A model generated the notes under the pieces. It searched no databases, was not told the DNA's origin, and worked only from the letters and a program-made list of their open reading frames with translations. A DNA stretch of 64,000 nt from a virus (taxonomy: Duplodnaviria; Caudoviricetes), in IMG/VR virus record IMGVR_UViG_3300021387_000090, positions 90,700-154,699 of that record, one strand, 5' to 3'. Of the stretch, positions 2,343-57,738 are shown in pieces (within the stretch, counting starts at the first letter, position 1; each line of letters starts with the position of its first letter). The position numbers and the translations under genes are program-made.

Positions 2343-2384
2343 TCTCCATTATAAATCTCCTTTCTTAAGTTAGTCATGACATAA

Positions 2385-2459
2385 TACCCAGAATCGGATT
2401 TGAACCGATAAGCACGATATTTTGAGTATCGCAGGTCTGCCAGTTGCCGTCATCTGGGC
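2385..2459 (-). tRNA. tRNA-Leu(CAA) with short variable loop
   Basis: GCCCAGA/TCTGGGT acceptor, CGATA-CT-CAA-AA-TATCG anticodon arm, ATCGG-TTCAAAT-CCGAT T arm. Confidence 0.8.
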
Positions 2460-2463
2460 AGGT

Positions 2464-2564
2464 GAGAAATAGAAATAAGGCCGTGTTAAAAAGGTATTGT
2501 TAGCGCTCCAATCGGGGTCGATTAAATGGTAAACCCGTTTCCCCATACCTCATCTCTATTTCTC
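2464..2564 (-). ncRNA. Unassigned structured RNA with 18-bp closing helix
   Basis: GAGAAATAGAGATGAGGT pairs with GCCTTATTTCTATTTCTC using G-U wobbles on the minus strand; two internal hairpins; lies between tRNA genes. Confidence 0.45.
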
Positions 2565-2580
2565 TTTGGTAGCTAACCAG

Positions 2581-2719
2581 TCGGAGTGATAGGATTCGAA
2601 CCTATAACACACAGTTCCTTGTTCCTATGAAGTAAGTGTTATACTGCTTCATTTTACATGAGAATAATAATAACACTCAAATATATTATACTGTTGCTCT
2701 ACCGTTAAGCTACACTCCG
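2581..2719 (-). ncRNA. tRNA scaffold whose anticodon loop is replaced by a permuted Y-RNA-like module
   Basis: CGGAGTG/CACTCCG-A acceptor, GCTT-AACGGT-AGAGC D arm, ACAGT/ACTGT anticodon stem, ATAGG-TTCGAAT-CCTAT T arm; insert contains TATTC-TCAT..ATGA-AGCAG..ACTTC. Confidence 0.75.
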
Positions 2720-2877
2720 TGGTGAGGTTAAAGTCCCTCAACTACACATATTACCAAGTTGGCCTATTGTCTTACATCCCTGTTCACCATTAATGTACAT
2801 TAAAATATTCTATGACTACTAACGAAGCAAGTTTTTCAATACTGCGGATGGTATTCATTTGTTCTCGACCGCTATCA

Positions 2878-2950
2878 TCGGAATAGAGAGACTTGAACTC
2901 TCGCCTCATCGGTTAAAAGCCGATTACTCTACCAACTGAGTTATATTCCG
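2878..2950 (-). tRNA. tRNA-Lys(TTT)
   Basis: Canonical cloverleaf; ATCGG-CT-TTT-AA-CCGAT anticodon arm. Confidence 0.9.
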
Positions 2951-2986
2951 AAAATAAATTATGGGTAAGGATTTGTACCTTATTAT

Positions 2987-3298
2987 TCATCCAGACTTAT
3001 CTGTAAGTTCAAAAAATTTATAACCATGATACAAAAAATAAATATAATCCCAATTCGTATCATAATTATCATTACCGCACCAGTCTTCTCTGTTAATTTC
3101 TATATCCAAAATTTTCGCAAGTTTTTCAAGATTAGTTATCTGAATTGCTTTTTCGTGAAATGTGTCAGCAACTGTAATTGATTCAAAGGATTTTCTTCTC
3201 ATTTTTTCGGCTTTAATCTGCATATTCAACCATTTATATGCGTTGTCCATTTCTCTCATTTTCATTCTTTCTCCAAATAATTTTTTGGTTAAACTCAT
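2987..3298 (-). CDS. Hypothetical protein inside the tRNA cluster
   Basis: 103 aa ORF with phage-like composition. Confidence 0.55.
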   Translation of the reverse strand: MSLTKKLFGERMKMREMDNAYKWLNMQIKAEKMRRKSFESITVADTFHEKAIQITNLEKLAKILDIEINREDWCGNDNYDTNWDYIYFLYHGYKFFELTDKSG

Positions 3299-3486
3299 AA
3301 TAAATACAGGAATGAACTAACATTTGCAGTCTTCGCTAACATACCAGTCAATGTGTACTCATGAGGGGCATACCATTTTCCACTTGAGGCCCATATTCAC
3401 TTATATACCGCACCGAAAGTTATCTACGGCTTTTACACTCGTAACTTTAATCCGTCGATTGTGCCCACGGCCATCCGTGCGGTTTA

Positions 3487-3585
3487 TTATGCGGGTAAGG
3501 ATTTGCACCTTACATGAGCAAGTTATTTACCGTAATTTCACATGCTCTTACGGACTATGTGTCTATCTATTCCACCACCGCATAA
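3487..3585 (-). ncRNA. tRNA-like RNA with aberrant, expanded anticodon domain
   Basis: TTATGCGG/CCGCATAA closing stem, GTGG-AATAGATAGA-CAC D-like arm, GTAAGG-TGCAAAT-CCTTAC T-like arm; no 7-nt anticodon loop. Confidence 0.6.
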
Positions 3586-3632
3586 CGTAGTCTTTCCTAC
3601 TGTCAGATCCCTCCACTTTGCACAAGTGAAGA

Positions 3633-3833
3633 TCGGAACGACAGGAATCGAACCCGCAATCAAGTTATCAACTTGTAAGCCGTTTCAAACCTTTATTTTG
3701 ATACGAGGAATTAGTATCATTATCACGCTACCCTCGAATGGTTACAAGTCCTACGCTACCTTTTATAAGAACAAAGGGATGGTGATTAGCCAATTACATC
3801 TTCGTCCATGTCTTCCTATTCCATCACGTTCCG
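3633..3833 (-). ncRNA. tRNA scaffold with a long insert in place of the anticodon arm (201 nt total)
   Basis: CGGAACG/CGTTCCG-A acceptor, ATGG-AATAGGAAGA-CAT D arm, GCGGG-TTCGATT-CCTGT T arm; internal ACTTGTAA/TTACAAGT helix. Confidence 0.65.
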
Positions 3834-3892
3834 AAGTGAGAGATGGGTAATTACATCCCTTATTGGTAGTCTCTCATTCAGTTTTCTACCAC

Positions 3893-3964
3893 AGCTGAAG
3901 GTGGGACTCGAACCCATGACCCTTCGCTTGCAAGGCGAATGTTCTCCCACTGAACTACAAGCCC
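3893..3964 (-). tRNA. tRNA-Ala(TGC)-like with unpaired acceptor stem (pseudo-tRNA)
   Basis: Good D, anticodon (TTCGC-CT-TGC-AA-GCGAA) and T arms, but 3' strand CTTCAGC does not pair with 5' GGGCTTG. Confidence 0.7.
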
Positions 3965-4074
3965 ATAAAAGTAGTTTTTTTATAGAAGATGCTACTAAAC
4001 TTCTTGTTATCCTTGTTGCACTACCTATAATTTTAAATGCCCAATGGACCATACCTCCATTCGATAGGATAAAA

Positions 4075-4148
4075 TACTTCTAAAAGGATTTGAACCTTTA
4101 TTTCTATTGATAAAATAGAAAGTCTAACCGAACTTAACTTATAGAAGT
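4075..4148 (-). tRNA. AU-rich tRNA-like gene, apparent anticodon TAT (Ile)
   Basis: ACTTCTA/TAGAAGT acceptor, TCTAT-TT-TAT-CA-ATAGA arm, AAAGG-TTCAAAT-CCTTT T arm; atypical C at position 37. Confidence 0.55.
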
Positions 4149-4375
4149 ACCAAATAATAAAAATCTTACTCAACGCCTAGACATTATTAAGGGGTCTGCG
4201 TTGCCTTCTTCCTTATCCTCATCCACTCCTCAGATTTTTATTAAATAAAATAATTAATTAATTAATTGAAGAGAAATCACACCTTTTTCTTCATATGGGG
4301 GTGTCTATTTAACATATAGATACGTTATCAGATATATCATTTCACTGATAAAAAGATTCACTTTGGGGAATCTAG

Positions 4376-9242: not shown

Positions 9243-9786
9243 TTCTTCTCCTCATATGTCTCAATTGTTGTACCATAATAGTGCTTATCAGGATATGATC
9301 TTTCCACAATGATATGATAATCAGTAATATCATCTTTTACGAAACTATGAACCATTAAAAGATCATCACGGTCTAAGAAGAATATACAATGTTTTACAAT
9401 CCACCAAAGTATTTTACTCATCATCTATCTCCGTCATTTTTGCACCACAATAGGGGCATTCCTTTTCTAATGGCTTTGGATGTTCTACACCATAACATCT
9501 ACCATTACCACAATGAGTACATTCATAATATGGATCACCACCCGGAGTACATACACCACGGATTCGAATCCATTTCGCTTTCAAATCAGATTCAACAATA
9601 GGACAGGAATCAGGACAAGCAATATATAATCCAGAGTGCGCACTAATTAATTCCTTTGTTACTGCACATTGAATAGAGTCATCAAACGGATTCCATTTTG
9701 CTAAATAGCACATATCACACGAAGATGGTTTGTCTAATCCTCTTATAAAAACTGACATTATATAACTCCTTTCCTGTTGTAGTAAA

Positions 9787-9860
9787 TTGGGAATGTGAGA
9801 TTCGGACTCACGACACACGGCTTATAAGGCCGCCGCTCTAACCGACTGAGCTAATTCCCA
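9787..9860 (-). tRNA. tRNA-Ile(TAT)
   Basis: TGGGAAT/ATTCCCA acceptor, GCGGC-CT-TAT-AA-GCCGT; T loop TCCGAAT. Confidence 0.85.
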
Positions 9861-9861
9861 C

Positions 9862-9952
9862 TGGCGGGGCCTGAAGGATTTGAACCATCGCACGACTTTC
9901 ATCGCCTAGCTGATTTCAAGTCAGCCCTCTTCAACCACTTGAGTAAGACCCC
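9862..9952 (-). tRNA. tRNA-Ser(TGA)
   Basis: GCTGA-CT-TGA-AA-TCAGC, long variable arm, G73 and encoded CCA. Confidence 0.9.
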
Positions 9953-9956
9953 AGAA

Positions 9957-10029
9957 TTGCCAACCGTGGAATTGAACCACGACCTCTTCCGTTATAGCTG
10001 GAGTGTGCTATCCTTTACACCAATTGGCG
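9957..10029 (-). tRNA. Degenerate tRNA, anticodon undetermined (possibly decayed fMet)
   Basis: Good D and T arms, C1:A72 mismatch, distorted anticodon arm TCCAGCTATAACGGA. Confidence 0.5.
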
Positions 10030-10161
10030 TTTGCCTTCCATATCCTCACAACTGTTCGTGTGTTGATCAGACACAACCCTCGTACCTACACTCTTGCTAA
10101 AACCCGCCTTGTTGACTCTACTTTTTGAAAGGCACTATAATAAAGGATCCTTATTAACTAA

Positions 10162-10686
10162 TTAAGGCCATTCACCTAATGGCTTACCTACATTAGCCAC
10201 ATCAGTACAGAAATGCACTGGAATATTTTCAAATATTTCTTTTGCAATATCCTGATACAAAGTGGATCTCATTCCATTAATATCACCAAGATTGTCATTA
10301 TAATACTGAACCACCTGATTCCTAAATACAACAAAATCCATTTGCATTGCATAAGGATTATCTACCGAATGAAAATAAGATACAATAGGATTATTCTTAA
10401 AAGCTGCCTGAATAAGTTCAAATGGACTCATTTCATTTGTGGGATTAGCAGGAATAACAATAATCTTAATACAAACATTTCCGAAATATTTCTCAGAGGG
10501 GAGAAGCTGTGTTAATGCATCTGCTTTTTCACTACCAGTCACATACAACTTGATCTCATCTGTATTTTCATTAAAAACAATTTTAATATCAGGATCTTCC
10601 TTAAACAACTCTTCTAACTCGTTATAATACTCACACCAAGGTGGTGACAAATTCAATTCATTACTATTTCTAACTTCTTCGTCCAT
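10162..10686 (-). CDS. Conserved hypothetical protein
   Basis: 174 aa ORF with AGGAGA RBS. Confidence 0.7.
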   Translation of the reverse strand: MDEEVRNSNELNLSPPWCEYYNELEELFKEDPDIKIVFNENTDEIKLYVTGSEKADALTQLLPSEKYFGNVCIKIIVIPANPTNEMSPFELIQAAFKNNPIVSYFHSVDNPYAMQMDFVVFRNQVVQYYNDNLGDINGMRSTLYQDIAKEIFENIPVHFCTDVANVGKPLGEWP

Positions 10687-10790
10687 AGTTTTTAATCTCC
10701 TTACTTATTATTTAAACCATAACTCTATTTATCTTTGCGGTTATTTGTCGTTTGGTGGAAATCATTTTCTTTTTTTGAGTCATGATTTAG

Positions 10791-10863
10791 AGCCGCCAGA
10801 GGGACTTGAACCCCCAACCTGCTGATTACAAATCAGCTGCTCTACCAATTGAGCCATGACGGC
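10791..10863 (-). tRNA. tRNA-Thr(TGT)
   Basis: Canonical cloverleaf; GCTGA-TT-TGT-AA-TCAGC. Confidence 0.92.
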
Positions 10864-10918
10864 AAATGGATGGCCTGATTACCCATCCTGCAGCAGTTTG
10901 CTCCTGCTTGCCAAGTTA

Positions 10919-11014
10919 AAGCTGAGAATAATAAAACGAGTTTATATAATACAACACCCATCATCAAAAAAACTTACCTACTTGTTAGAAGTAACTCGTT
11001 TTCCGCTTCAGCTT
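10919..11014 (-). ncRNA. Y-RNA-like unit A (non-tRNA cargo loop)
   Basis: AAGCTGA-AGCGG-AAAACGAGTT-ACTTC ... AACTCGTTTT-ATTATTC-TCAGCTT; downstream of Ro60 gene. Confidence 0.75.
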
Positions 11015-11034
11015 ATCTGAAAGGACTTTTTATC

Positions 11035-11140
11035 AACCGAGAATATTTGAAGAGTTCATATGGGATTCGAACCCACTTAGTTAGATTTACAGTCTAGTGA
11101 TAAACCAAATATCGAAGTAACTCTTCAGGCCGCTTCGGTT
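11035..11140 (-). ncRNA. Y-RNA-like unit B (D, anticodon GTA/Tyr and T arm cargo)
   Basis: AACCGA-AGCGG-CC-TGAAGAGTT-ACTTC, GATA-TTTGGTT-TATC, CTAGA-CTGTAAA-TCTAA, GTGGG-TTCGAAT-CCCAT, AACTCTTCA-AATATTC-TCGGTT. Confidence 0.8.
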
Positions 11141-11158
11141 ATATTAATATTCATGTTA

Positions 11159-11272
11159 ATAGCCGAGAATAATGATAGGGTTTTATACCTTGGGATTCGA
11201 ACCCAAATAATCCAATTACCAATTAGAAGCATTACCATTATGCGAAGTAACCCTAACAACCGCTTCAGCTAT
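11159..11272 (-). ncRNA. Y-RNA-like unit C (D, anticodon GGT/Thr and T arm cargo)
   Basis: ATAGCTGA-AGCGG-TTGTTAGGGTT-ACTTC, GCAT-AATGGTA-ATGC, TCTAA-TTGGTAA-TTGGA, TTGGG-TTCGAAT-CCCAA, AACCCTATCA-TTATTC-TCGGCTAT. Confidence 0.8.
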
Positions 11273-11288
11273 ATAATTTATCATCATA

Positions 11289-11421
11289 ATAGACGAGAAT
11301 AAGATAACAGTTTTTTAGTATCTTTCAATTGGAATCGAACCAATAATAGTTTTCTTAAAAGGAAAATGACTTAACCGTTTGTCTATAAAAGAGAAGTAAC
11401 TGTTATAACCGCTTCGCCTAT
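11289..11421 (-). ncRNA. Y-RNA-like unit D (complete tRNA-Lys(TTT)-like cloverleaf cargo)
   Basis: ATAGGCGA-AGCGG-TT-ATAACAGTT-ACTTC, acceptor TCTTTTA/TGAAAGA, TTTTC-CTTTTAA-GAAAA, ATTGG-TTCGATT-CCAAT, AACTGTTAT-CTTATTC-TCGTCTAT. Confidence 0.8.
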
Positions 11422-11427
11422 ATTTTA

Positions 11428-13092
11428 TTACTGTTTATTTCGTTTTCTATTATCTTTTTCTTGATCTTTCTGATCCCATAACTTGATCATAGCATCAGCA
11501 AAAACAAGTTCTTTACCAGTCCAACCATACATAATGTTTGTTCTATATCCGTATTCAGGAACCAATACATTACTGTATCCCGCAGTTTGTACACAGAACA
11601 CATTTACTTTAGGATTAACTTTGTTTCTGTATTCCTGAATAAGTTTGGCTACATCAATGTAAGTTATTCCACAGCAAAAACCAGCTTCTCTATATTCACG
11701 CTCACCTTGAAGTGTTCCATAAAGCCCACCATGACCAGCTTGCATATCTGAATAGATAAAGATATTATCCCAATGTTCTTTCTTTTTGATGGCGTCTCTA
11801 AAGAAAATCCAAACACCATTTTCTGTACCGCCACCGACATCTCTACTCCGTCCACTGGTAATTTTTTCAGCCTGTGTTAATACACCATTCCGTTTGGAAA
11901 TGGGCGTAATAATTAACTCATCCCCAAACTTACCAACATACCCCTCGTCGCTATTCTTGGCAGTAATAACAGAACTTAGATTATCAATCTCCGCAACAGT
12001 CACGCTACCATACTCAGAATTAAAAGCGCCCCATGCAGATCCGCTATTATCAGAAAGACACATTGTCTTACCTTTTAGCTTCGGCATATTATCACAAGCA
12101 ATATCAATACATTCTTCCAAAGCATCAAGTACTATGGGCTTATGATATATGTCTGCCTTTTCAAGCATTTTATATGCAGACCAATAACGGAAAGGGAACT
12201 GCTTTCCATTGATTACACCTTTCTTCAGATAATCAAGGATTCTTTTACATAAATCAGCATCCAAAATCTCTGTAAAGATATTCCTTAAATTACGAAGGAG
12301 GCTCATGTGATTAAGAACTTTGGCATCCCAAATCTCTCTCCAAGTTTTTCCTGCGGATTTTAATCTTTCCCACGTTGACTCATTATCTTCTACTTTAATT
12401 GTACCAGTGGTCATTAATTCATCAATCACTGAATTATTTGCATGACAAATTCTTACGGTATCAATCATGCCCACGTTTGCGTTTTTATATTTCGCCAGTT
12501 CATATCTGGTTCCATTCTTCAAACGCTTTGCCCAAGATCTTTTTAAAATAGAAGGAATATGATTCTTCTTTCCGTTTCTATACAGCCAATAAGTAAGCTG
12601 AGAACTAGGTTCGTCTGCTCTACTCATTACCTGATAATTAATTTCAGAGAAAAGACCGGGATGTTCTTCGTCAAACTGTACTCTCTTTGGATGCATTGCA
12701 GCACGAACCATAATCACTTGCGGATTCAACCGCATATAATAATCTTTTCGTAATTCCAAAGCCCAACGAATGGTAGCTTCAAAATCTGCATCCAGAGCGT
12801 CATCAATAACTGTTTCCATTACTTCAGAAGTCTTTTTACCATTCCACTGATCACCAATTACAGCATAATCAGCAAAGGTTCTATTCAATGTAAAAATACC
12901 ATCAAGGACTCCTTTTTGGGCAAATTCACCAGTTCTATAATACTGAGGTTCGCCCATGATCGAGGATGCTGTAACCATTTTCATTGTTTCCACGGGAGAA
13001 AGTCCATAAGATATACCCCCCATATAATTGGTTTGGGCCTTTTTTGTTTCTGTAGTTCTCTTTTCTGTTACCGCTCTAGCCATTCTACTCAT
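11428..13092 (-). CDS. rsr: Ro60/Rsr-like TROVE-domain RNA-binding protein with C-terminal vWA domain
   Basis: 554 aa; TROVE hallmarks SLLRNLRNI and QFPFRYWSAY; MIDAS-like DNSGS and IYSDMQ; flanked by Y-RNA-like repeats. Confidence 0.9.
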   Translation of the reverse strand: MSRMARAVTEKRTTETKKAQTNYMGGISYGLSPVETMKMVTASSIMGEPQYYRTGEFAQKGVLDGIFTLNRTFADYAVIGDQWNGKKTSEVMETVIDDALDADFEATIRWALELRKDYYMRLNPQVIMVRAAMHPKRVQFDEEHPGLFSEINYQVMSRADEPSSQLTYWLYRNGKKNHIPSILKRSWAKRLKNGTRYELAKYKNANVGMIDTVRICHANNSVIDELMTTGTIKVEDNESTWERLKSAGKTWREIWDAKVLNHMSLLRNLRNIFTEILDADLCKRILDYLKKGVINGKQFPFRYWSAYKMLEKADIYHKPIVLDALEECIDIACDNMPKLKGKTMCLSDNSGSAWGAFNSEYGSVTVAEIDNLSSVITAKNSDEGYVGKFGDELIITPISKRNGVLTQAEKITSGRSRDVGGGTENGVWIFFRDAIKKKEHWDNIFIYSDMQAGHGGLYGTLQGEREYREAGFCCGITYIDVAKLIQEYRNKVNPKVNVFCVQTAGYSNVLVPEYGYRTNIMYGWTGKELVFADAMIKLWDQKDQEKDNRKRNKQ

Positions 13093-13109
13093 ATTATTTT
13101 CTCCTTTTA

Positions 13110-13204
13110 AATTCGTGAATATTTAAGAGTGCTTAAAAATATATGTAGGGAAGATTTCAAGTCTTTTCTTTATAATTGAAGTAACACTCTTACCGCTACG
13201 AATT
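13110..13204 (-). ncRNA. Y-RNA-like unit E (Ser TGA anticodon-hairpin-like cargo)
   Basis: AATTCGT-AGCGG-TAAGAGTGTT-ACTTC ... AAGA-CTTGAAA-TCTT ... AGCACTCTTA-AATATTC-ACGAATT; ends just before the Ro60 RBS. Confidence 0.75.
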
Positions 13205-13225
13205 GAGACATATGTTCGCCTCACA

Positions 13226-13297
13226 CTGGGCTAACTGGATTCGAACCAGCGAATGCAGGAGTCAAAGTCCTGTGCCTTACCGCTTGGCGATAGCCCA
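13226..13297 (-). tRNA. tRNA-Gln(TTG)
   Basis: Canonical cloverleaf; CAGGA-CT-TTG-AC-TCCTG. Confidence 0.92.
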
Positions 13298-13348
13298 TCG
13301 TTCTATGTATATTCTAATCTTAAACCCTTAACTCTTACTACATCATGG

Positions 13349-13378
13349 ATTATATCATATTACCCAAGCCTTTGTCAA
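13349..13378 (-). promoter_or_regulatory. SigmaA-type promoter for the tRNA-Gln / Y-RNA / Ro60 operon
   Basis: TTGACA-18nt-TATAAT with extended TG. Confidence 0.75.
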
Positions 13379-13437
13379 TAGCTTTTTTCTCACTAAATGT
13401 ATTTTCTATTCTTTAGCCCCGGCTTTAAACCGGGTAC

Positions 13438-14322
13438 TTAAATCAAATAACTTCTATACTGTCGTAAAAAATCCCATCTAAAGCGGCTTATATTATATTG
13501 ATTTTTTACTTTATCATACAATTCCTGTGTAGCAATTACTGTATATGGCTGTATATTATTTTGCTTTGCCAAACAATTAATATAATGAACTATACCAGCG
13601 GTTACAATATCTGTTACAGAACAATTATATTCCATTTCTTTTAATGCTTTAACCACCTGCGCATAGATCTTTTTGTATCTTATAATAGGATCAGTTGAAG
13701 AATCCTTCTGATAAAAATCTTTTAAGATCCGACCATTATCAATAAGATCTCTCGTAGAATGGCCCCAGGGTACAGAGTCTTCTTCTTTTGCTTGATGGAT
13801 CACTTTCAATAATTCATCAGAAATTGTAACTGTCCTGTCAATCAATTTCAATTCATGTCCATTAATATCCTCTTCTTTTGCATCAAGAAGATCCCGAAAA
13901 TTATTTTTGCCGCCAACTTCAAATAGCATCAGCATAACATATTTCATTCTTGCTGTTCGAAGTTCTTTAAGATGCAACAGAAAATCTTCACGAGTAATAA
14001 GCTGATCTTTGATTCCTTTTTCAGTAAGAATATTTTCAATTTCTGTACTGTTTATTCTGCGGGCTTCATTTACTTTACAGTATCCTTTCTGGATGCACCA
14101 ATCTATATAAATTGTAATTATGTTTTTGTACTTTTCTATGGTATAAAAGCGTTTACTTTCTGTAGTCTGAAGAAGAAATAATATTTCTTCTTTTGAAAAA
14201 TCACATACGTCTTTTTCAAACAATTCCTCAATTTCAGAAATAGAACGGAACAAAGAATCAGTTAAGTCATTACGGTTTATATCCGAATTTATAAAATCAT
14301 TTTTTCTATCTTCGTTATACAC
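13438..14322 (-). CDS. SPbeta YopR/MrpR-like repressor (tyrosine-recombinase fold, catalytic residues not evident)
   Basis: MYNEDRK..F start, E..FEKDVCDFSKEEI and YIDWC motifs; adjacent to a YopQ-like gene. Confidence 0.65.
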   Translation of the reverse strand: MYNEDRKNDFINSDINRNDLTDSLFRSISEIEELFEKDVCDFSKEEILFLLQTTESKRFYTIEKYKNIITIYIDWCIQKGYCKVNEARRINSTEIENILTEKGIKDQLITREDFLLHLKELRTARMKYVMLMLFEVGGKNNFRDLLDAKEEDINGHELKLIDRTVTISDELLKVIHQAKEEDSVPWGHSTRDLIDNGRILKDFYQKDSSTDPIIRYKKIYAQVVKALKEMEYNCSVTDIVTAGIVHYINCLAKQNNIQPYTVIATQELYDKVKNQYNISRFRWDFLRQYRSYLI

Positions 14323-18031: not shown

Positions 18032-19018
18032 TTACAGTAAATTACTCATAATATCAGATGCCTTTTTAGTTACATCAGCCTGACCACGAATATATCTTTC
18101 CGTAGTAGTAGGAGAATTATGTCCCATTGCTTTCTGTACGAAATAAATATCCTTTGTTGCCTCGTATAATTGCGTACCATACGTTGCACGAAGTTTATGA
18201 GGTGTAATATGTTTTCCGTTAATATCACAAGCATACTTGGTTACAATTGCACAAAGACCATCATCTTTCAACCTATCACCATACTGATTCAGAAACAAAG
18301 CAGAAGTCTGTTTACCGTTTAAAACTGCGTCTCTACGCTTAAGCCATTCAACAATAGCGTCTTCGGTTCCTTTATTCAACTGATAATCTTTTACCTTCCC
18401 GCCTTTATCTGTAACCCAAAGTATATGTCTCTCTAAATCTACATTCTCTACGTCCAAACTTTGCATAGCTGATCTTCTAATACCAGTAGTAAGAAATACA
18501 AGAATAATAGCATAGTCTCTTTCTTTCATACGCATTTGACAGCGTTTAGCGTTTTCACTACCAACCCCCTCTTTAACGGAGGTAAGATATACTTTCAATT
18601 CTTCTTTTGTCAAAAAGCTTTTTGCTCTTTTTTCAATAGTCTTTTGGCTTTCAATAGGTTTTGGACGAGCAATAGAATCCATATAATTAGTTGGCAAAAT
18701 ATTAACTTTAACTAAATATTCATTATACAACTTAAGAGCATGATATTGTTGAATCATAAAGCTGCTTGTTTTAGCTTCACCATTTTCATCATAAGCGGTA
18801 CTACTCATAAAATAAGTAAAATCATCAAACCCCAATTCATTTGGCTTCTTATGTAAATCATGTAAAAGTCTATCTGCAATGGCGATATAACGATATACAG
18901 TATTCAAAGATTTATTAATGCGAAGATAATTATAAAATCCTCTTACATCAGGATGCGAAAGTAAATAATTTTCAATAGTATTAATACGATCATTTTTCAT
19001 TTCGTTGTAACCAGTCAT
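18032..19018 (-). CDS. Tyrosine recombinase/integrase (XerC/D-like; SPbeta YopP-like)
   Basis: Catalytic set TGIRR, KGGK, HKLR, MGH and ERY present. Confidence 0.9.
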   Translation of the reverse strand: MTGYNEMKNDRINTIENYLLSHPDVRGFYNYLRINKSLNTVYRYIAIADRLLHDLHKKPNELGFDDFTYFMSSTAYDENGEAKTSSFMIQQYHALKLYNEYLVKVNILPTNYMDSIARPKPIESQKTIEKRAKSFLTKEELKVYLTSVKEGVGSENAKRCQMRMKERDYAIILVFLTTGIRRSAMQSLDVENVDLERHILWVTDKGGKVKDYQLNKGTEDAIVEWLKRRDAVLNGKQTSALFLNQYGDRLKDDGLCAIVTKYACDINGKHITPHKLRATYGTQLYEATKDIYFVQKAMGHNSPTTTERYIRGQADVTKKASDIMSNLL

Positions 19019-52654: not shown

Positions 52655-52685
52655 AAACCCGAAGTATAAATACTTCGGGTTTTTT
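52655..52685 (+). terminator. Intrinsic terminator
   Basis: AAACCCGAAGTAT/ATACTTCGGGTTT hairpin followed by a T run. Confidence 0.75.
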
Positions 52686-52757
52686 GGCCTTTTAGCTCAA
52701 TGGTAGAGCATTCGGCTGTTAACCGAAGCGTTATTGGTTCAAGTCCAGTAAGGGCCG
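52686..52757 (+). tRNA. tRNA-Asn(GTT)
   Basis: GGCCTTT/AAGGGCC-G acceptor; TTCGG-CT-GTT-AA-CCGAA. Confidence 0.9.
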
Positions 52758-52987
52758 TTATCCTCTTCAAGAGGAAATATTATGAAAGAAAAGGATTAAA
52801 CATGATTAAGATTAGTCAAAAAGAAGCGGAATACATCCGTTCCAAAGGTATGGATTATTTAATTCATATTTCCAGTGCGACACATAAGAGTCGTGCAAAA
52901 AGATATTATTTAACGGAAGATAAAAAGGCAATGCGGCTAATTAGGGAGTATAGGGAGAATTCTGTAACTTCAACTTTTGGTTAAAAT

Positions 52988-55981
52988 TTGAATGAGGAAT
53001 TTTCTATGTATAAGAAGTATAATCCAAATCCAGCGCACAAAAGAAATGGTGACTGTATTATAAGGGCAGTTACAAAAGTAACAGGAAAATCATGGGAACA
53101 AGTATATGCTGAATTAGCTATACAGGGTTTCGTTCTATATGCTATGCCGTCAGAAAATGATGTTTTGCATGAATATCTATATCAATTAGGTTTTGATAGA
53201 TTTATAATTCCTAATAGCTGTCCAAAATGCTATACAGTGCGTGATTTTACATATGATCATCCTTATGGTGAATTTATCTTAGGGACAGGATCTCATGTAA
53301 TAGCAGTAATAGATGGTGATTATTATGATAGTTGGGATTCTGGTGAAGAAATCCCAATTTTTTATTGGAGGAGGTAATTTATGGCTATAACAAATTTGGC
53401 GAATGGCTACCAACCAACGACTGCGGTTAATGGTAATAATTATGGGAATAATTATGGTTACTCTTCTACTCCTACCCCTGTAAATTCAACATCTCTGACT
53501 CCTCCACCTGCCATTATTGGTTTTGTTCGCGGGCGAATGGGAGCGGGTGCATATCCGATTATGTCTTCTAATACGACTGCTTATTTATTTGATGTTGAAG
53601 ATCAAACTAAGTTTTATATTAAACAAACAGATGCCTTTGGTATGACTATGCCTTTGCGGCAATGTACATATCATGAGGATTTTATACAGTTTCAACCGAC
53701 TCAAGTAGCTATACCAAATGTAGCACAAGAAGTTGATGAAAGTAAAGAGCCAATAAATAATTCTTCTATTTCAAAAGAAGAATTTGATGAACTAAAGGCT
53801 CAACTTGCAGCATTAACAGATACTATTCAAAAACAGAATTTCCAGCAAAACAAACCTAGAAAGGAACGAACAAATAATGTTTAATTTTCCTAATAATAAT
53901 ATGGGTAATATAAGTAATGTTATTAATTCTTTGATGGGTAATATAAATAATGTTATTAATTCTTTGGGTGGTGCTACACAAATGATGCAACAATTTAATC
54001 AATTTAAAAATAACTTGCAAGGCGACCCAAGGTTACAAGTTCAGAATTTATTAAATTCAGGACAAATGAATCAAAATCAATATAGTCAATTATTGTCATT
54101 GGCACAGACATTAAATCAAATGATGCCAAGGTATTTTTAGCTTCAAAGGAATATCAAGATAATCCAGAGAGTTTTTTGAATAAATCAAAACGGATAAAAC
54201 CATGCGCAAGGTTTATTATATGGAACTTTTTGTTTTATTTTGAAAGGAGCATAATATGGCTATTATGTCTGATTCTATGGGGCCAGCTGATATCGCTGCG
54301 GTAACTGGTAATAATGGTAATGGTGGTTTCAATGATGGATCTATTTGGATTTGGGTACTCTTCCTCTTCGCATTAATGGGTGGTTGGGGTAATAATGGAA
54401 ATAACGGTGGCGGCGGTTATATGGCCTATCCTTATATGGGTAACACAGTCCAAAGTGGATTTGATCAAGCGGCAATTATGAGCGGCCTTAATGGCATTAC
54501 TTCTGGCATTTCTACTGGTTTTGCTAATGCTGAAGTAAGTCGTTGTAATGGGCAGACCAATATTTTGCAAGCCTTAAATACGAATCAAGCAAATTTAACG
54601 AATCAATTAAATACTATTGCAATGAATCAGCAAAATTGCTGTTGTGAAAATAGAGCGGCTACTGCTGAAGTAAAATATGCAGTTGCTAATGAAGCGGCTG
54701 CTACACGAGCAAATACTGATGCTAAAGTCCAGATGGTTATGGATAAGTTGTGTCAGCTTGAATTAGATGGCGTAAAGCAGAATTATGAGAACCGTATTGC
54801 GGGTATGCAGAATACTATTGATGGACTGCGTATTCAGGTAAGCAATGCTAGATTTGATGCTTCTCAGGATGCTCAAACTGCCACCATTCAGGCAGGACAG
54901 AGAAGCCTCGCTAATGAAGTAGAACAGTATGTCCTTCCTACTGCTAGACCTGCTTATATCGTACCAAACCCTAATTGTTGTGGACAGAATTATTATGGAT
55001 ATGGTTGCGGTTGTGGTGCTTAAGAAAGAGGTGGCATATGGCAGAATATAGTGCAAATGCCCGTCAGAATGTAACCACGAATCAAAACGTATTATTTACT
55101 AATGCTCCTGATCCGTGTAATAAAGGGCTAATTATTCATAGAGATGGATCTGGTATTTTTACTTTGAAAGGGATCGTCCCTAATACTTATCAGGGTTGTA
55201 ATTGCTGTAATAATAATAACGTAGCAAGATATTTGGTGACCTATGGGGCGAATATCCAGATTCCAACTGGTGGCACAGTTGGTGAAATTAGTTTAGCATT
55301 GGCTGTGGATGGGGAAATTCTTCCTGATAGCATTGTTCGTGTAACGCCAGCGGCAGTTGATCAATTTCAGTCAGTAAGTCGTACTGTTAGCGTTCCTGTT
55401 CCCCGTGGATGTTGTGAAAACATTGCTATAGAAAATACTAGCACTCAAACTATTGGTGTGCAAGAAGCAAATATTGTATTTTCTCGTCCTGACTTATATG
55501 TAACAAGGTAAGGAGGGAAAATATGGGCAAAAGAAAATTCGAAGAATTAAAATATAGATTGTGTGACGAACTCCAAGAATTGGAAGAACGTCCTAGATGG
55601 TCTGAAAAAGATGTTGAAATGATTGATCGACTTACTCATTCTATTAAAAGTCTTATGAAATATTTAGAGATGGAAGAACAGAATGATTTAGATTATGAGG
55701 GTCAATCTTTTGCTAGGGGAAGATATAATACTCGTTATTATAGAGACGATCAAAGCTATGGGCGTGGTCGAAGTTATGACGGAAGTTATGATGATAGAGG
55801 CTATAATAATTATCGGAGTTATGATGATCGGCCTTATATGGGGCGTAGTCGAGATGATGAGATGGATAGCAGAAAACAAGAATTAGAGCATGAATTGGAA
55901 GCTTTGATGGAGAAAACATCTGACGCTGATGTTAAGGAAGCTATTAAGAAGACCATGGCTCAGATGAAAAAGAATAAATAA
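52988..55981 (+). other. Six-gene cassette of N/Q/G/C-rich hypothetical proteins (52988-53377, 53381-53884, 53877-54140, 54256-55023, 55037-55511, 55523-55981)
   Basis: Co-oriented ORFs with RBSs; QNCCCE motif protein, BclA-C-like beta protein, YDD/GRS-repeat protein; ends at a terminator. Confidence 0.65.
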
Positions 55982-55988
55982 AAATATA

Positions 55989-56024
55989 TGGGGGGTAGGC
56001 TTGATAAAAGCCTACCCCCTTTTT
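55989..56024 (+). terminator. Intrinsic terminator
   Basis: GGGGGTAGGCTT/AAGCCTACCCCC hairpin followed by TTTTT. Confidence 0.8.
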
Positions 56025-56273
56025 GATGATAAGGAGAATAATTATGGAAGCAAAGCGTACTATAAAAACGGATGTAAAATTTAAAGATATCCTGATTAAG
56101 GATAATCAGATTGTAGATTTCGAAACTGGTGTAACTATAGATTTAATTGCCAATTTGGAAGAAATATATGCGGATGAGCCTTTTACATTAACTTGTACAA
56201 CCAAGTCCGAAGAAATACTTGAATTAGAAAATAACGATTAATATATATAGATCGGAATAAGGAGAGATTTGTT

Positions 56274-57503
56274 TTGAACATAGAAAATGAATTAAAATTG
56301 GTTGGTCTAACGCCTGAAGATTATGAGAATTTTCTTCAGGATTGTGAAGATAAAATTAATGGAATGACAGATCTTGATTGGAGTGAAATAATTGAAAAAT
56401 ATAATCTACCTTTTGATCGTAGACGTATATCAGAGTCTATGGGCAGGAATATATTGGGTGGGAACTTTGTTCGTGAATTCTATAAAAACCAACTCGTTAA
56501 TAAATCATCAGATGATGTGGTAAAAGAACTAATATCCAAGGAACAAGATATATATAAGGCTAAACGTAAGCTTCAAGATGAGCGTAATGAATTGAATAAA
56601 GTCCTTCGGGAAGAAGCCAGATATGAAGAAAATCTCAGATTGTTTGAAGAGAGGTTATCAAATATTGGCAAGCAAAGATATCCTTTAGAGTTAGAGCCAA
56701 CTTTTAGTTTTAAGAATAGTGCTGTTGATAATAACACTCTTCTTTGCTGTCTTTCAGATTTGCATATTGGTTTAGAATATAATACTTCTACTGGTAAATA
56801 TAGTGTGGAAATTGCAACAAATAGATTAGCTCAGTATATTGAAGAAATAAAGAAAATTGCTAAACGACATTTTGTAAACAAATGTGTGGTAGTCCTTTTA
56901 GGAGATTGTATAAGCGGTAATTTGCATTTAACACTTCAGATTTCTAACAGAGAAAATGTAGTTGATCAGACAATGACAGCTTGTGAAGTTATTGCAGATT
57001 TTGTTTACAAACTGAAAGAGATAATTCCCACTATTGAAATATATAGCGTTCCGGGAAATCATAGTCGTATTGAAAAAAATAAAGACGATGCGTTGTTGAA
57101 TGAAAAATTAGATAATATAATTCCTTGGTTTTTGGCTCATATATTTGAGCATGATAAAGAAATCTATGTCGGCCTTAAAGAGGCTGATGATACATATAGC
57201 TATTTCAATATTGATGGTAAAGATTATGCTATTCTTCATGGTGACTTTGATGGTATTAGTGATACAGAGGTACAAAGATTCTGTGCCTTTATTGGAAAAT
57301 TCCCATATGCTATTATTATGGGACATAAGCACCACCCAGCCATGAACGAAGTATCAGGTATTAAGGTGATTCAATGTGGCAGTCTTATGGGATCTGGTGA
57401 TGATTATACCAGACGAAAAAGACTTACTGGTAAAGCATCACAAACTGTATTAATTTGTAATGATATGGGGATAGAAGCAATATATCCTATTGAATTGGTT
57501 TGA
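56274..57503 (+). CDS. Calcineurin-like metallophosphoesterase (YonJ-like)
   Basis: SDLHIG, LGDCISG, PGNHSR, HGD and GHKH motifs. Confidence 0.85.
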   Translation: MNIENELKLVGLTPEDYENFLQDCEDKINGMTDLDWSEIIEKYNLPFDRRRISESMGRNILGGNFVREFYKNQLVNKSSDDVVKELISKEQDIYKAKRKLQDERNELNKVLREEARYEENLRLFEERLSNIGKQRYPLELEPTFSFKNSAVDNNTLLCCLSDLHIGLEYNTSTGKYSVEIATNRLAQYIEEIKKIAKRHFVNKCVVVLLGDCISGNLHLTLQISNRENVVDQTMTACEVIADFVYKLKEIIPTIEIYSVPGNHSRIEKNKDDALLNEKLDNIIPWFLAHIFEHDKEIYVGLKEADDTYSYFNIDGKDYAILHGDFDGISDTEVQRFCAFIGKFPYAIIMGHKHHPAMNEVSGIKVIQCGSLMGSGDDYTRRKRLTGKASQTVLICNDMGIEAIYPIELV

Positions 57504-57588
57504 AATAGAGCCGTTAGCACCTCTCATTGAAGTGGCCCATTAACGGCCATTTGTTTGTGCCTTAATAAGCGCTTATTGAGGCACTATT

Positions 57589-57661
57589 GTCTTATTGGTG
57601 TTAGTGGAAAGCATACCAGTCTTCCAAACTGGTGGGATCAGTTCGAATCTGATATGAGACT
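57589..57661 (+). tRNA. tRNA-Gly(TCC)
   Basis: GTCTTAT/ATGAGAC-T acceptor; CCAGT-CT-TCC-AA-ACTGG. Confidence 0.85.
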
Positions 57662-57665
57662 TTAT

Positions 57666-57738
57666 CGCAGATTACGTTGGAACGGCCCCACGATGGGTTC
57701 ATATCCCATGAAACCAAGTTCGACTCTTGGATCTGCTA
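57666..57738 (+). tRNA. tRNA-Met(CAT), initiator-like
   Basis: C1:U72 mismatch, three G-C pairs in anticodon stem ATGGG-TT-CAT-AT-CCCAT; weak D arm. Confidence 0.75.

What the first reader, a model, noticed from the sequence alone, without database searches (positions are those of the whole stretch)
10919..13204. Phage Ro60 with an array of modular Y-like RNAs carrying interchangeable tRNA/anticodon cargo
Seen in sequence: five non-coding units flank the TROVE gene, one upstream and four downstream, co-oriented behind one promoter. All share the layout helix1 - AGCGG - helix2 - ACUUC - cargo - helix2' - UAUUC - helix1'. The helix sequences differ between copies but stay paired (AAAACGAGUU/AACUCGUUUU, UGAAGAGUU/AACUCUUCA, UAGGGUU/AACCCUA, AUAACAGUU/AACUGUUAU, UAAGAGUGUU/AGCACUCUUA). 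G-U wobbles favour the minus strand. The cargo differs per copy: Tyr(GUA) D-AC-T arms, Thr(GGU) D-AC-T arms, a full Lys(UUU) cloverleaf, a Ser(UGA) anticodon hairpin, and a non-tRNA loop. Established: Ro60/Rsr binds the terminal stem of Y RNAs encoded next to its gene. As I recall it, bacterial YrlA mimics tRNA in a permuted way, with the Ro stem at the anticodon position and no anticodon displayed. Here the handle sits at the acceptor end and anticodon loops are intact. Inference: a constant Ro handle plus a variable anticodon payload forms a multiplexed RNP system. It could act as a set of decoys or tethers for host anticodon nucleases (PrrC and PARIS target tRNA-Lys(UUU); retron Ec78 PtuAB targets tRNA-Tyr), synthetases, T-box riboswitches or ribosomes.
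Basis: partly seen in the sequence, partly recalled or inferred. Interest (0 to 1): 0.95.

Follow-up and report, generated by a model that had tools for sequence, protein, structure and literature searches.

The report
Phage Ro60 partner RNAs displaying anticodons
A large phage of rumen bacteria encodes a Ro60-type RNA-binding protein flanked by five small RNAs that share one conserved handle, four of which display look-alikes of tRNA anticodon arms, a form of Y RNA I could not find described and which may act in the phage-host fight over tRNAs.

Summary
Five co-oriented RNA units flank the TROVE/Ro60 gene (13204-10919, minus strand). All share an outer helix, AGCGG, a second helix ending GUU, ACUUC, a cargo, then UAUUC.

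A covariance model of the handle finds exactly these five in the 154.7-kb phage genome. It finds 170 copies beside TROVE genes in 78 phage loci, all on the gene's strand, with strong covariation: 89% of cells paired against 55% when shuffled.

The handle carries the published YrlA motifs (GNCGAAG; YUAY at nt 22-25). In relatives, including Bacillus phage G, the same handle carries permuted YrlA-type domains. So these are Y RNAs.

What differs is the cargo. It is a tRNA body in natural D-anticodon-T order joined at the acceptor end (Lys-UUU, Thr-GGU, Tyr-GUA), or a lone anticodon hairpin (Ser-UGA). Rfam YrlA does not match the window.

Across the family, canonical anticodon loops are strongly enriched and are swapped between otherwise conserved units.

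The function, decoy or tether for anticodon-recognising proteins, is inference. I rate it a new variant of a known kind. This scan has noted similar arrays on other DNA. Five literature searches found no published description.

The parts
13349..13378 (-). Sigma-70-type promoter (TTGACA, 18 nt, TG-n-TATAAT) upstream of tRNA-Gln, U1 and the Ro60 gene
   Evidence: 12 of 12 hexamer matches with TG before the -10. It is the only perfect site among 20 promoter-like sites in 9500-14000. No terminator-like site was found in that range.
13226..13297 (-). tRNA-Gln(UUG), an ordinary tRNA and the first gene of the presumed transcript
   Evidence: ARAGORN; Rfam tRNA 63.2 bits.
13110..13204 (-). Unit U1: a Y-type RNA whose cargo is an anticodon-like hairpin AAGA-CUUGAAA-UCUU (UGA). 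Its 3' end lies 18 nt before the Ro60 start codon, next to the GGAG ribosome-binding site.
   Evidence: R1 76.4 bits, E 1.4e-14 (in the seed). The orthologues L012:5362-5459 and L093:4362-4459 keep GACUUGAAAUC while the stem and flanks change.
11428..13092 (-). Ro60/TROVE-type protein, 554 aa
   Evidence: Pfam TROVE 25.8 bits against a cut-off of 23. PHROG 850 'RNA-binding protein', E 3.1e-43 over residues 1-529. Nearest solved relative by sequence is the Thermus phage phiLo Ro60, 9KOP/9L5Y, E 6.3e-11, and the aligned stretch includes DNSGS opposite DVSGS. 60% identical over 99% of its length to Bacillus phage G gp540.
11290..11420 (-). Unit U2: the handle enclosing a complete tRNA-Lys(UUU)-like cloverleaf (11392-11320). 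It has a 7-bp acceptor stem and no encoded CCA, and sits between unpaired ACUUC (5') and ACUAAAA (3').
   Evidence: R1 38.6 bits, E 1.2e-05, not in the seed. Rfam tRNA 58.9 bits over positions 1-71, GC 0.27. ARAGORN calls Lys(ttt). At most 64% identical to any other ARAGORN-called tRNA of the genome.
11160..11271 (-). Unit U3: the handle plus D arm, anticodon arm (loop UUGGUAA, GGU) and T arm, with no separate acceptor stem. ACU of the invariant ACUUC can pair with GGU just after the T stem.
   Evidence: R1 41.1 bits, E 3.1e-06, not in the seed. Rfam tRNA 37.8 bits over positions 10-63. Fold.
11034..11141 (-). Unit U4: the handle plus D arm, anticodon arm (loop CUGUAAA, GUA) and T arm. The second handle helix stands in for the acceptor stem.
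   Evidence: R1 39.6 bits, E 7.2e-06, not in the seed. Rfam tRNA 36.4 bits. The orthologues L012:5473-5580 and L011:1937-2045 carry CUUUUAA (UUU) instead.
10919..11014 (-). Unit U5: the handle with a 47-nt cargo that shows no tRNA feature
   Evidence: R1 68.7 bits, E 8.9e-13 (in the seed). No tRNA match. The fold is no better than shuffles, z -0.73.
10790..10863 (-). tRNA-Thr(UGU), an ordinary tRNA directly downstream of U5
   Evidence: ARAGORN; Rfam tRNA 71.4 bits.

Best explanation
The five units are Y RNAs, the small partner RNAs of the phage's Ro60-type ring protein. They are most likely made from one transcript together with the protein's mRNA and the flanking tRNAs.

Shown:
- Each unit closes its 5' and 3' ends into a conserved two-helix handle.
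- The handle structure is kept by compensatory changes across hundreds of copies.
- The handle is found in this genome only beside the TROVE gene.

Inferred, at about 0.9: the handle is the Ro60 binding site. Its 5' strand carries the published YrlA motifs. The same handle carries YrlA-type tRNA mimics in related phages.

Inferred, at about 0.45: Ro60 holds the RNA at the acceptor end. The tRNA elbow and an intact anticodon arm then project outward. Each particle thus offers one anticodon arm (Ser-UGA, Lys-UUU, Thr-GGU, Tyr-GUA) as a ligand for a protein that reads anticodon arms.

In a phage, the most likely readers are host tRNA-cutting defence nucleases. The particle would occupy or inhibit such a nuclease, or link it to Ro60-associated exonucleases such as PNPase. 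Which tRNA-targeting factor is met would be set by swapping the anticodon arm on a constant scaffold.
For: Handle and Ro60 link:
- R1 finds 170 matches at E<=1 in the window plus 78 phage loci holding TROVE relatives. Every match is on the TROVE strand, and 67 of the 78 loci have at least one.
- In the window's own genome the only significant matches are the 5 units.
- On 129 distinct units, 89.1% of cells pair against 55.5% when shuffled (0 of 500 shuffles reach it) and 35-47% when the partner is slid. All 15 pairs show double changes.
- The 5' strand GGCGAAG in U2 fits GNCGAAN0-1G. UUAC at nt 22-25 fits the conserved YUAY at nt 22-25 of YrlA (Chen 2014; sequence).
- Rfam YrlA (RF02553) hits permuted units of relatives at 28-44 bits, below the gathering score of 69, with E from 1e-06 to 0.06. 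These hits coincide with R1 matches, including one in Bacillus phage G.

Anticodon display:
- Rfam tRNA aligns U2-U4 in natural order.
- CU-NNN-AA loops closed by at least 4 bp occur in 23 of 129 cargos. Two hundred mononucleotide shuffles give 0.7 +/- 0.8, with a maximum of 4.
- A heuristic classing of the 129 units gives 9 D-AC-T, 3 AC-T, 19 lone or double AC hairpins, 9 permuted, 7 T-only and 82 other.
- U2 orthologues keep the D and T arms but carry different, fully paired anticodon arms: UUU, GCU, UUA.
- Three tandem units at L168:2445-2814 differ in 8 clearly aligned columns. Four of these lie in the 7-nt loop: CUGAUAA, CUGAGGA, CUGUCAC.

Context:
- The locus lies inside a tRNA cluster.
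- The genome encodes an Rnl2-type RNA ligase.
- Hughes 2020 proposes that YrlA might competitively inhibit an anticodon nuclease.
- A preprint reports that a Ro60-like phage protein counters a defence system.
Against: - There is no transcript, binding or phenotype data for any unit.
- Most family members (82 of 129) show no tRNA feature, so anticodon display is not general to the handle.
- U5 has none.
- The displayed anticodons are A/U-rich (UUU is the commonest, about 10 of about 33 loops by my reading). That is expected in AT-rich DNA regardless of function.
- Anticodon change between orthologues could be drift or recombination with tRNA genes rather than selection.
- The shuffle control was mononucleotide only.
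- In bacterial-genome loci, 5 of 70 handle matches lie on the strand opposite the TROVE gene.
- One strong match (L192, 60.5 bits) lies on a 26-kb viral fragment with no TROVE gene.
- The defence system countered by the Ro60-like protein in the preprint is thought to degrade DNA, not tRNA.
- Salmonella YrlA was not cut by the SOS-induced anticodon nuclease.
Confidence: 0.45

Rival explanations
1. They are Y RNAs, but the tRNA-like parts serve only as a stable, nuclease-resistant fold or as a general dock for tRNA enzymes or PNPase. The identity of the anticodon would be irrelevant, a relic of descent from tRNA genes.
For: [quoted passage not shown] The family shows a graded series from full cloverleaf to lone hairpin to no tRNA feature, as decay would give. 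The acceptor stem of the U2 family shrinks from 7 to 5 to 3 bp across relatives. The displayed anticodons are AT-rich.
Against: Canonical 7-nt CU-NNN-AA loops on paired stems are kept far above chance: 23 of 129 against 0.7 expected. Lone anticodon hairpins without D or T arms cannot supply a tRNA fold. The loop is conserved while the stem covaries in the U1 family. Changes concentrate in the loop among the L168 paralogues.
Confidence: 0.25
2. The handle is a processing scaffold. The units are precursors from which working tRNAs or defined tRNA fragments are cut, with U2 acting as a real tRNA-Lys.
For: U2 is a full cloverleaf with a 7-bp acceptor stem (58.9 bits). Full tRNA-model matches also lie inside handles at L076:5296-5369 (59.2 bits) and L025:5168-5239 (51 bits). 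M. smegmatis YrlA, which has a 7-bp stem, is cut by RNase P and receives CCA (Chen 2014). The phage's other tRNA genes also lack an encoded CCA.
Against: U3, U4 and most relatives lack an acceptor stem with free ends. U1 and U5 have no tRNA body. U2's GC content is 0.27 against 0.52-0.56 for the phage's ordinary tRNAs. The genome already has a tRNA-Lys(UUU) at 2877-2951. The acceptor stem is not conserved in U2's orthologues.
Confidence: 0.1
3. The anticodon loops pair with codons or other RNA. This would bring Ro60, and with it exonucleases, to ribosomes or to particular transcripts.
For: The loops are canonical and exposed. Ro60 with a Y RNA specialises PNPase for structured RNA decay (Chen 2014 introduction and Hughes 2020 passages).
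Against: Three bases give little specificity. No complementary target was sought or found here. No precedent was found in my searches.
Confidence: 0.08
4. The handle does not bind Ro60. It would be a general transcript-processing or insulating stem of phage tRNA operons that merely tends to sit near TROVE genes.
For: The units lie in tRNA clusters. One strong match lies on a 26-kb fragment without a TROVE gene, and a weak one on an 8.8-kb fragment.
Against: The window's other tRNA clusters (2384-4149 and 52685-57737) have no handle. All 170 phage-locus matches share the TROVE strand. The handle carries the YrlA Ro-binding motifs. The two orphan records are estimated at only 9% and 4% complete.
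Confidence: 0.05

Closest known systems
YrlA-type bacterial and phage Y RNAs with Rsr/Ro60 (Rfam RF02553; Chen et al. 2014, PMC4201824, section 4 and passages read; Wang et al. 2018, bioRxiv 10.1101/312249, passages read)
   Same: Both are encoded next to and co-oriented with the Ro60 gene, often several per locus and sometimes in one transcript with a tRNA. Both have a terminal stem made of the 5' and 3' ends. Both carry the 5' motif GNCGAAN0-1G followed by YUAY at about nt 22-25. Both have a tRNA-like effector domain with canonical D and T loops. Relatives of this phage carry YrlA-type units on the same handle.
   Different: In YrlA the arms are permuted (V, T, closed acceptor-like stem, D). 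The Ro stem occupies the anticodon-stem position and there is no anticodon loop. Here the order is D, anticodon, T. The handle joins at the acceptor end and a 7-nt anticodon loop is displayed. RF02553 gives no match in window 9500-13800 at E<=10.
Deinococcus radiodurans Yrn1 (as described in Chen et al. 2014, passages read)
   Same: Its T- and D-like elements have the opposite orientation to YrlA. The stem-loop between them sits at the anticodon-arm position, with a 5-bp stem.
   Different: Yrn1 has no clear D arm, a 6-nt loop and no variable arm. The window's units score as tRNA (36-59 bits), have 7-nt loops with U33 and A37, and come as a set with different anticodons.
Thermus phage phiLo Ro60 with Yrl1 and Yrl2 (NAR 2025, PMC12135203, abstract and passages read; PDB 9KOP, 9L5Y)
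   Same: It is a phage Ro60 with adjacent Y-like RNAs that have a 5'-3' stem and an internal loop holding a CGAA motif. It is the nearest solved protein by sequence (E 6.3e-11). The authors suggest it recruits host PNPase and may help escape host defence.
   Different: Two RNAs lie upstream of the gene, and no tRNA-like or anticodon feature is mentioned in the passages I read (the word 'anticodon' occurs 0 times).
Bacillus phage G gp540 locus (JN638751.1)
   Same: It is the closest isolated phage: the TROVE protein is 60% identical over 99% of its length. Seven R1 matches lie on the gene's strand, five of them in tandem upstream. One has permuted YrlA-type cargo. PMC12135203 states that Chen 2014 reported Y RNA-like RNAs in this phage.
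   Different: No natural-order tRNA cargo was evident in the six alignments shown. The record annotates none of these RNAs.

Membership tests
Y RNA (partner RNA of Ro60) | Encoded next to, and co-oriented with, a Ro60/TROVE gene | tested here: met
   All five units lie within 510 bases of the ORF's ends, on its strand. All 170 matches in the window and 78 phage loci are on the TROVE strand. In bacterial-genome loci, 65 of 70 are.
Y RNA (partner RNA of Ro60) | A terminal stem formed by the 5' and 3' ends, with a conserved internal loop or bulge that holds the Ro-binding motif | tested here: met
   The two-helix handle covaries strongly. The conserved loop is WGCRG opposite WUAUUC. The 5' strand fits GNCGAAN0-1G exactly in U2 and with one change in U3-U5.
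Y RNA (partner RNA of Ro60) | Physical binding to Ro60 | not testable with these tools
   Needs EMSA or immunoprecipitation.
YrlA (Rfam RF02553) | Reaches the family's Rfam gathering score (69 bits) | tested here: not met
   No RF02553 match in window 9500-13800 even at E<=10. Permuted units in relatives reach 28-44 bits.
YrlA (Rfam RF02553) | A permuted tRNA-like domain (T arm, closed acceptor-like stem, D arm) with the Ro stem at the anticodon-stem position | tested here: not met
   Rfam tRNA aligns U2-U4 in natural D, anticodon, T order. My heuristic of the 5 window units permuted.
YrlA (Rfam RF02553) | GNCGAAN0-1G near the 5' end and conserved YUAY at about nt 22-25 | tested here: met
   U2 has GGCGAAG at nt 3-9 and UUAC at nt 22-25 (one search read against Chen 2014). 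U-A-C-U-U-C is nearly invariant in 129 units.
tRNA (Rfam RF00005) | Cloverleaf scoring above the gathering score (29 bits) | tested here: met
   U2 58.9 bits (positions 1-71), U3 37.8 (positions 10-63 only), U4 36.4. U1 and U5 give no match.
tRNA (Rfam RF00005) | A 7-bp acceptor stem with free, processable ends that allows charging | tested here: inconclusive
   U2 has a 7-bp stem flanked by unpaired linkers inside the handle. U3 and U4 have no separate acceptor stem. Processing and charging cannot be tested here.
Ro60 / Rsr (TROVE protein) | TROVE domain followed by a vWA domain with a DxSxS metal site | tested here: met
   Pfam TROVE 25.8 against 23 bits. PHROG 850, E 3.1e-43. DNSGS aligns with DVSGS of phiLo Ro60.
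Ro60 / Rsr (TROVE protein) | Closed HEAT-repeat ring fold | not testable with these tools
Only sequence relatedness to 9KOP/9L5Y could be shown.

The most novel reading that the evidence does not exclude
Phage Ro60 particles would be a programmable set of anticodon-arm decoys. A constant Ro60-bound handle presents swappable anticodon stem-loops or whole tRNA bodies. These bind and neutralise host tRNA-cutting defence nucleases, or other anticodon readers, one specificity per RNA. New specificities would arise by changing only the loop, as in the three L168 paralogues. This would give bacterial and phage Y RNAs a defined role in the conflict over tRNAs.
Probability: 0.3. Interest if true: 0.9.

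Novelty: new variant of a known kind. Interest (0 to 1): 0.72.

Why it matters
What the tRNA-like domain of bacterial Y RNAs does has been open since 2014.

These units keep the known Ro60 handle but expose real anticodon loops, in several specificities per phage. That narrows the candidate partners to proteins that read anticodon arms. The question then becomes testable with loop swaps, pull-downs and challenge by known anticodon nucleases.

Bacillus phage G is an isolated relative with seven such handles and offers a laboratory entry point.

It also matters for annotation. ARAGORN calls two of the five units (U2 and U3) ordinary tRNA genes, so phage tRNA counts near TROVE genes are inflated.

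Tried and rejected
Things that led nowhere or were set aside:
- Single-sequence folding gave weak support (z from -0.7 to -2.3). Comparative evidence was needed.
- My first partner-finding script found a paired 3' partner for 60 of 78 strict 5' motifs. Some of the 18 misses were real units below my threshold and some were chance motifs inside ORFs. I replaced it with the covariance model.
- The MAFFT alignment A2 put the second helix in two registers. I rebuilt the seed as A3, from 10 of the 17 units, all in one register.
- Reverse test from RNA to protein with a 14-base pattern. Only 6 of 80 fetched loci held an R1 match at E<=0.01.
- Of those 6, the TROVE gene was shown in 4 records. L211 and L254 showed it by tblastn. 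L237 lies on the contig of L014. The record holding L230 showed it.
- The other 2 of the 6 are fragments estimated at 9% and 4% complete with no TROVE gene. None of the 74 R1-negative loci had a TROVE match. The test is supportive but weak.
- The tRNA-like cargos are not recent copies of the phage's own tRNAs. The best identity is 0.64 for U2, 0.58 for U3 and, apart from U3, 0.63 for U4.
- RtcB (PF01139) is absent from the genome. The PF09511 search was uninformative because it rang in none of the control genomes.
- The two plus-strand strict-motif hits in the genome are not R1 matches. I treat them as chance.
- I left L013 and L080 out of the R1 search because their units are identical to those of L012.
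- Supplementary files of Chen 2014 (Tables S1 and S2, Fig. S1) could not be seen. They list the phage YrlA candidates and could already include units like these.
- The two Wolin-laboratory reviews (PMC10870794, PMC6047535) and Burroughs and Aravind 2016 were not held, so I did not read them.
- My claim that this is not in print rests on searches only.


Full report
What is there.

The window is the last 64 kb of a 154,699-bp IMG/VR virus record with direct terminal repeats. On the minus strand a 554-aa ORF (13092-11428) is a Ro60-type protein:
- Pfam TROVE scores 25.8 bits against a cut-off of 23.
- PHROG 850 'RNA-binding protein' matches at E 3.1e-43 over residues 1-529.
- The nearest solved relative by sequence is the Ro60 of Thermus phage phiLo (9KOP/9L5Y, E 6.3e-11). 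A DNSGS metal-site motif aligns to its DVSGS.
- A profile of 15 relatives found only the same two chains.

Five non-coding units flank the gene on its strand: U1 13204-13110, U2 11420-11290, U3 11271-11160, U4 11141-11034 and U5 11014-10919.

Each unit reads as follows: a 6-7 bp outer helix, AGCGG, a second helix of 7-10 bp ending GUU, ACUUC, the cargo, the second helix's partner starting AAC (AGC in U1), UAUUC, and the outer helix's partner.

A perfect sigma-70-type promoter with an extended -10 lies at 13378-13349. No terminator-like site lies between 9500 and 14000. The simplest reading is therefore one transcript: tRNA-Gln, U1, Ro60 mRNA, U2-U5, tRNA-Thr and further tRNAs. This is inference, since no expression data exist.

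Is it more than chance?

In 80 phage loci fetched through TROVE relatives, the strict 5' motif AGCGG-N4-18-ACUUC occurs 73 times on the TROVE strand and 5 times on the other.

I built a covariance model of the handle, R1. The seed had 10 units: U1, U5 and eight from other phages. I searched the window plus 78 loci, 685,495 bases on both strands. L013 and L080 were left out as duplicates of L012.
- There were 170 matches at E<=1, every one on the TROVE strand.
- By my count from the table, 67 of the 78 loci had at least one match. The 11 without are mostly truncated or distant loci.
- In the window exactly the five units matched, at 76.4, 68.7, 41.1, 39.6 and 38.6 bits. The last three were not in the seed.
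- The other 91.8 kb of the same genome gave nothing better than 16 bits, E 0.36.

Covariation was counted on the 129 distinct units among the best 150 matches:
- 89.1% of cells pair, against 55.5% when the 3' letters are shuffled (0 of 500 shuffles reach it).
- 35-47% pair when the partner is slid by 1-3 columns.
- All 15 modelled pairs show changes on both sides.
- The covariation score is 0.84, against 0.06-0.13 for the slid versions.

This alignment was fitted to the model, which favours the structure. However, the outer helix is anchored without gaps by the invariant motifs and is 93% paired.

The family consensus is NNNYYGA-WGCRG ... G(U)U-ACUUC ... WUAUUC-UCRRNNN.

What the handle is.

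Chen et al. 2014 (I read section 4 and further passages) define YrlA-type Y RNAs by two motifs. One is a 5' motif GNCGAAN0-1G thought to contact Ro60. The other is a conserved YUAY at nt 22-25.

U2 reads GGCGAAG at nt 3-9 and UUAC at nt 22-25. U3-U5 differ from the first motif by one base. UACUUC is nearly invariant in the 129 units.

In relatives the same handle encloses the published, permuted YrlA-type domain (T arm, closed stem, D arm). Rfam YrlA (RF02553) matches those units below its gathering score of 69, but with E values from 1e-06 to 0.06, at places that coincide with R1 matches:
- L097:2902-3044 (44.2 bits)
- L033:5294-5429 (41.7 bits)
- L068:2276-2404 (39.8 bits)
- L069, L018, L025 and L020
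- L091:1820-1906 in Bacillus phage G

Phage G is the closest isolated phage, with a TROVE protein 60% identical over 99% of its length. It has seven R1 matches on the gene's strand and none is annotated in the record. PMC12135203 states that Chen 2014 reported Y RNA-like RNAs in this phage.

I therefore take the five units to be Y RNAs that share the YrlA handle, with about 0.9 confidence. Binding itself cannot be tested here.

What is different.

RF02553 gives no match in window 9500-13800 even at E<=10, while Rfam tRNA does.
- U2 holds a complete cloverleaf with anticodon UUU at 58.9 bits. It has a 7-bp acceptor stem, U8, A14, G18-G19 and a UUCGAUU T loop.
- U3 holds D, anticodon (UUGGUAA) and T arms at 37.8 bits over model positions 10-63.
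- U4 holds the same three arms with CUGUAAA at 36.4 bits.
- U1 carries only a hairpin, AAGA-CUUGAAA-UCUU. Its loop equals the anticodon loop of the phage's own tRNA-Ser(UGA).
- U5 shows nothing tRNA-like.

The order of arms is natural and the handle joins where the acceptor stem would be. In U3 the ACU of ACUUC can pair with GGU just after the T stem, leaving UC at positions 8-9. In L076:5277-5393 the equivalent bases form a 6-bp acceptor stem (my reading of the sequences).

In YrlA, by contrast, the Ro stem replaces the anticodon stem and there is no anticodon loop. A partial precedent exists: Chen 2014 notes that D. radiodurans Yrn1 has the opposite orientation and a possible anticodon arm with a 6-nt loop.

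How general is anticodon display?

Among the 129 distinct phage-locus units, a heuristic arm finder gives 9 D-AC-T (3 in the window; others in L011, L012, L040, L076). It also gives 3 AC-T, 19 lone or double anticodon-like hairpins (a few doubtful), 9 permuted, 7 T-arm only and 82 with no tRNA feature.

Rfam tRNA confirms natural-order matches inside handles in L011, L012, L014, L040 and L076, and in L025 and L069.

The strict signature of an anticodon loop, CU-NNN-AA closed by at least 4 bp, occurs in 23 of 129 cargos. Two hundred mononucleotide shuffles give 0.7 +/- 0.8, with a maximum of 4.

In 80 loci from Bacillota genome bins and isolates, mostly from rumen and gut, R1 gave 70 matches at E<=0.01. 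Of these, 65 are on the TROVE strand and 5 on the opposite strand. The 69 distinct units class as 6 D-AC-T, 2 AC-T, 12 AC, 11 permuted, 2 T-only and 36 other.

By my reading, UUU is the commonest displayed triplet, at about 10 of about 33 loops. It is followed by UGA, then GCU, GUU and UAA. This is also what AT-rich DNA would favour.

Are the anticodons interchangeable?

In the U2 family (window, L012, L093, L011) the handle, D arm and T arm are conserved. The anticodon arm is replaced by different, fully or nearly fully paired arms carrying UUU, GCU and UUA.

In the U4 family the window has GUA, while L012, L093 and L011 have UUU. In the U1 family the loop CUUGAAA is kept while the stem covaries.

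The clearest case is in a Ruminococcus-labelled bin. Three tandem units at L168:2445-2814 are 92% identical in column average. They differ at 8 clearly aligned columns, 4 of them inside the 7-nt loop: CUGAUAA, CUGAGGA and CUGUCAC. The third copy also has one 15-nt deletion.

This pattern is what selection for new loop specificities on a fixed scaffold would give. With three sequences it is suggestive, not proof.

Mechanism.

Shown: a conserved, covarying handle tied to the Ro60 gene, and tRNA bodies or anticodon hairpins as cargo.

Inferred: Ro60 binds the handle. The anticodon arm is exposed and serves as a ligand for a protein that reads anticodon arms.

In a phage that carries 11 ordinary tRNA genes by ARAGORN, leaving out U2 and U3, and an Rnl2-type RNA ligase (86.7 bits), tRNA-cutting host defences are the obvious candidates.

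The idea that a Y RNA's tRNA-like domain competitively inhibits an anticodon nuclease was floated for Salmonella YrlA by Hughes et al. 2020 (passages read). A preprint reports that the Ro60-like gp130 of phage Bas63 counters a defence system and guesses that some neighbouring 'tRNA genes' are Y RNAs (passages read).

Against this reading:
- Most family members show no tRNA feature.
- That defence system is thought to attack DNA.
- Nothing here measures binding or phenotype.

I put the anticodon-ligand reading at 0.45, and within it the anti-nuclease decoy at about 0.3. The rivals are a purely stabilising or vestigial tRNA fold (0.25), a processing scaffold for real tRNAs (0.10), codon pairing (0.08) and a handle unrelated to Ro60 (0.05).

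Novelty.

Already known:
- Ro60 with Y RNAs in phages.
- Several Y RNAs per locus.
- tRNA mimicry by YrlA.
- Co-transcription of Y RNAs with tRNAs.

Five full-text searches and the papers read did not show Y RNAs that carry natural-order tRNA bodies or bare anticodon stem-loops with varied anticodons.

I could not see the supplements of Chen 2014, the two reviews or Burroughs and Aravind 2016.

This scan has noted similar handle-tagged anticodon-mimic arrays beside Ro60-like genes on other DNA. One of those notes gave me the Rfam accession, which I then tested.

I class the finding as a new variant of a known kind, with interest 0.72.

Noticed in passing
window 13092-13130 (minus strand): U1 ends 18 nt before the Ro60 start codon, directly next to the GGAG ribosome-binding site. 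If Ro60 binds its own leader there, it could feed back on its own translation.
   Followed up: no
L168:2445-2814: Three tandem, near-identical handle units in a 196-kb contig of a Ruminococcus-labelled bin differ mainly in the 7-nt loop: CUGAUAA, CUGAGGA and CUGUCAC.
   Followed up: partly
window 9957-10029 (minus strand): An odd tRNA-like gene. ARAGORN reports an undetermined type with a two-base 'anticodon', and Rfam tRNA gives only 33.5 bits. It has no handle.
   Followed up: no
window 4074-4149 and 9787-9860 (minus strand): Two tRNA genes called Ile with anticodon UAU by ARAGORN.
   Followed up: no
G000:C1:80269-80733 (minus strand; about 10 kb before the window starts): An Rnl2-family RNA ligase (PF09414, 86.7 bits, open frame of 350 aa). 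No RtcB was found in the genome.
   Followed up: partly
L020:1372-2015 and L014:1-476: ROOL RNA (Rfam RF03087, 284 and 220 bits) lies 1.5-3 kb upstream of the TROVE gene in two related phages, among tRNA genes.
   Followed up: no
L033:6622-7022 and L091:8647-8958: tmRNA genes lie downstream of the TROVE locus in a related phage and in Bacillus phage G. The phage G record annotates its own.
   Followed up: no
L192:613-694: A strong handle match (60.5 bits) lies on a 26-kb viral fragment estimated at 9% complete, in which no TROVE relative was found.
   Followed up: partly
L137:4645-4744, L124 and L126:2455-2610, L135:4828-4967, L132:2614-2708: Five handle matches in Synergistaceae- and Lachnospiraceae-labelled bins lie on the strand opposite the TROVE gene, unlike all matches in the phage loci.
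   Followed up: no
window 13438-14322 and 18032-19018 (minus strand): Two integrase-like ORFs lie just upstream of the locus. One matches PHROG 5830 with a MrpR-type core-binding domain. The other matches PHROG 216 and PHROG 1.
   Followed up: no
L014:6577-6623: An Rfam DUF3800-XI RNA match just above its gathering score (39.4 against 37.8 bits) lies downstream of the unit array.
   Followed up: no
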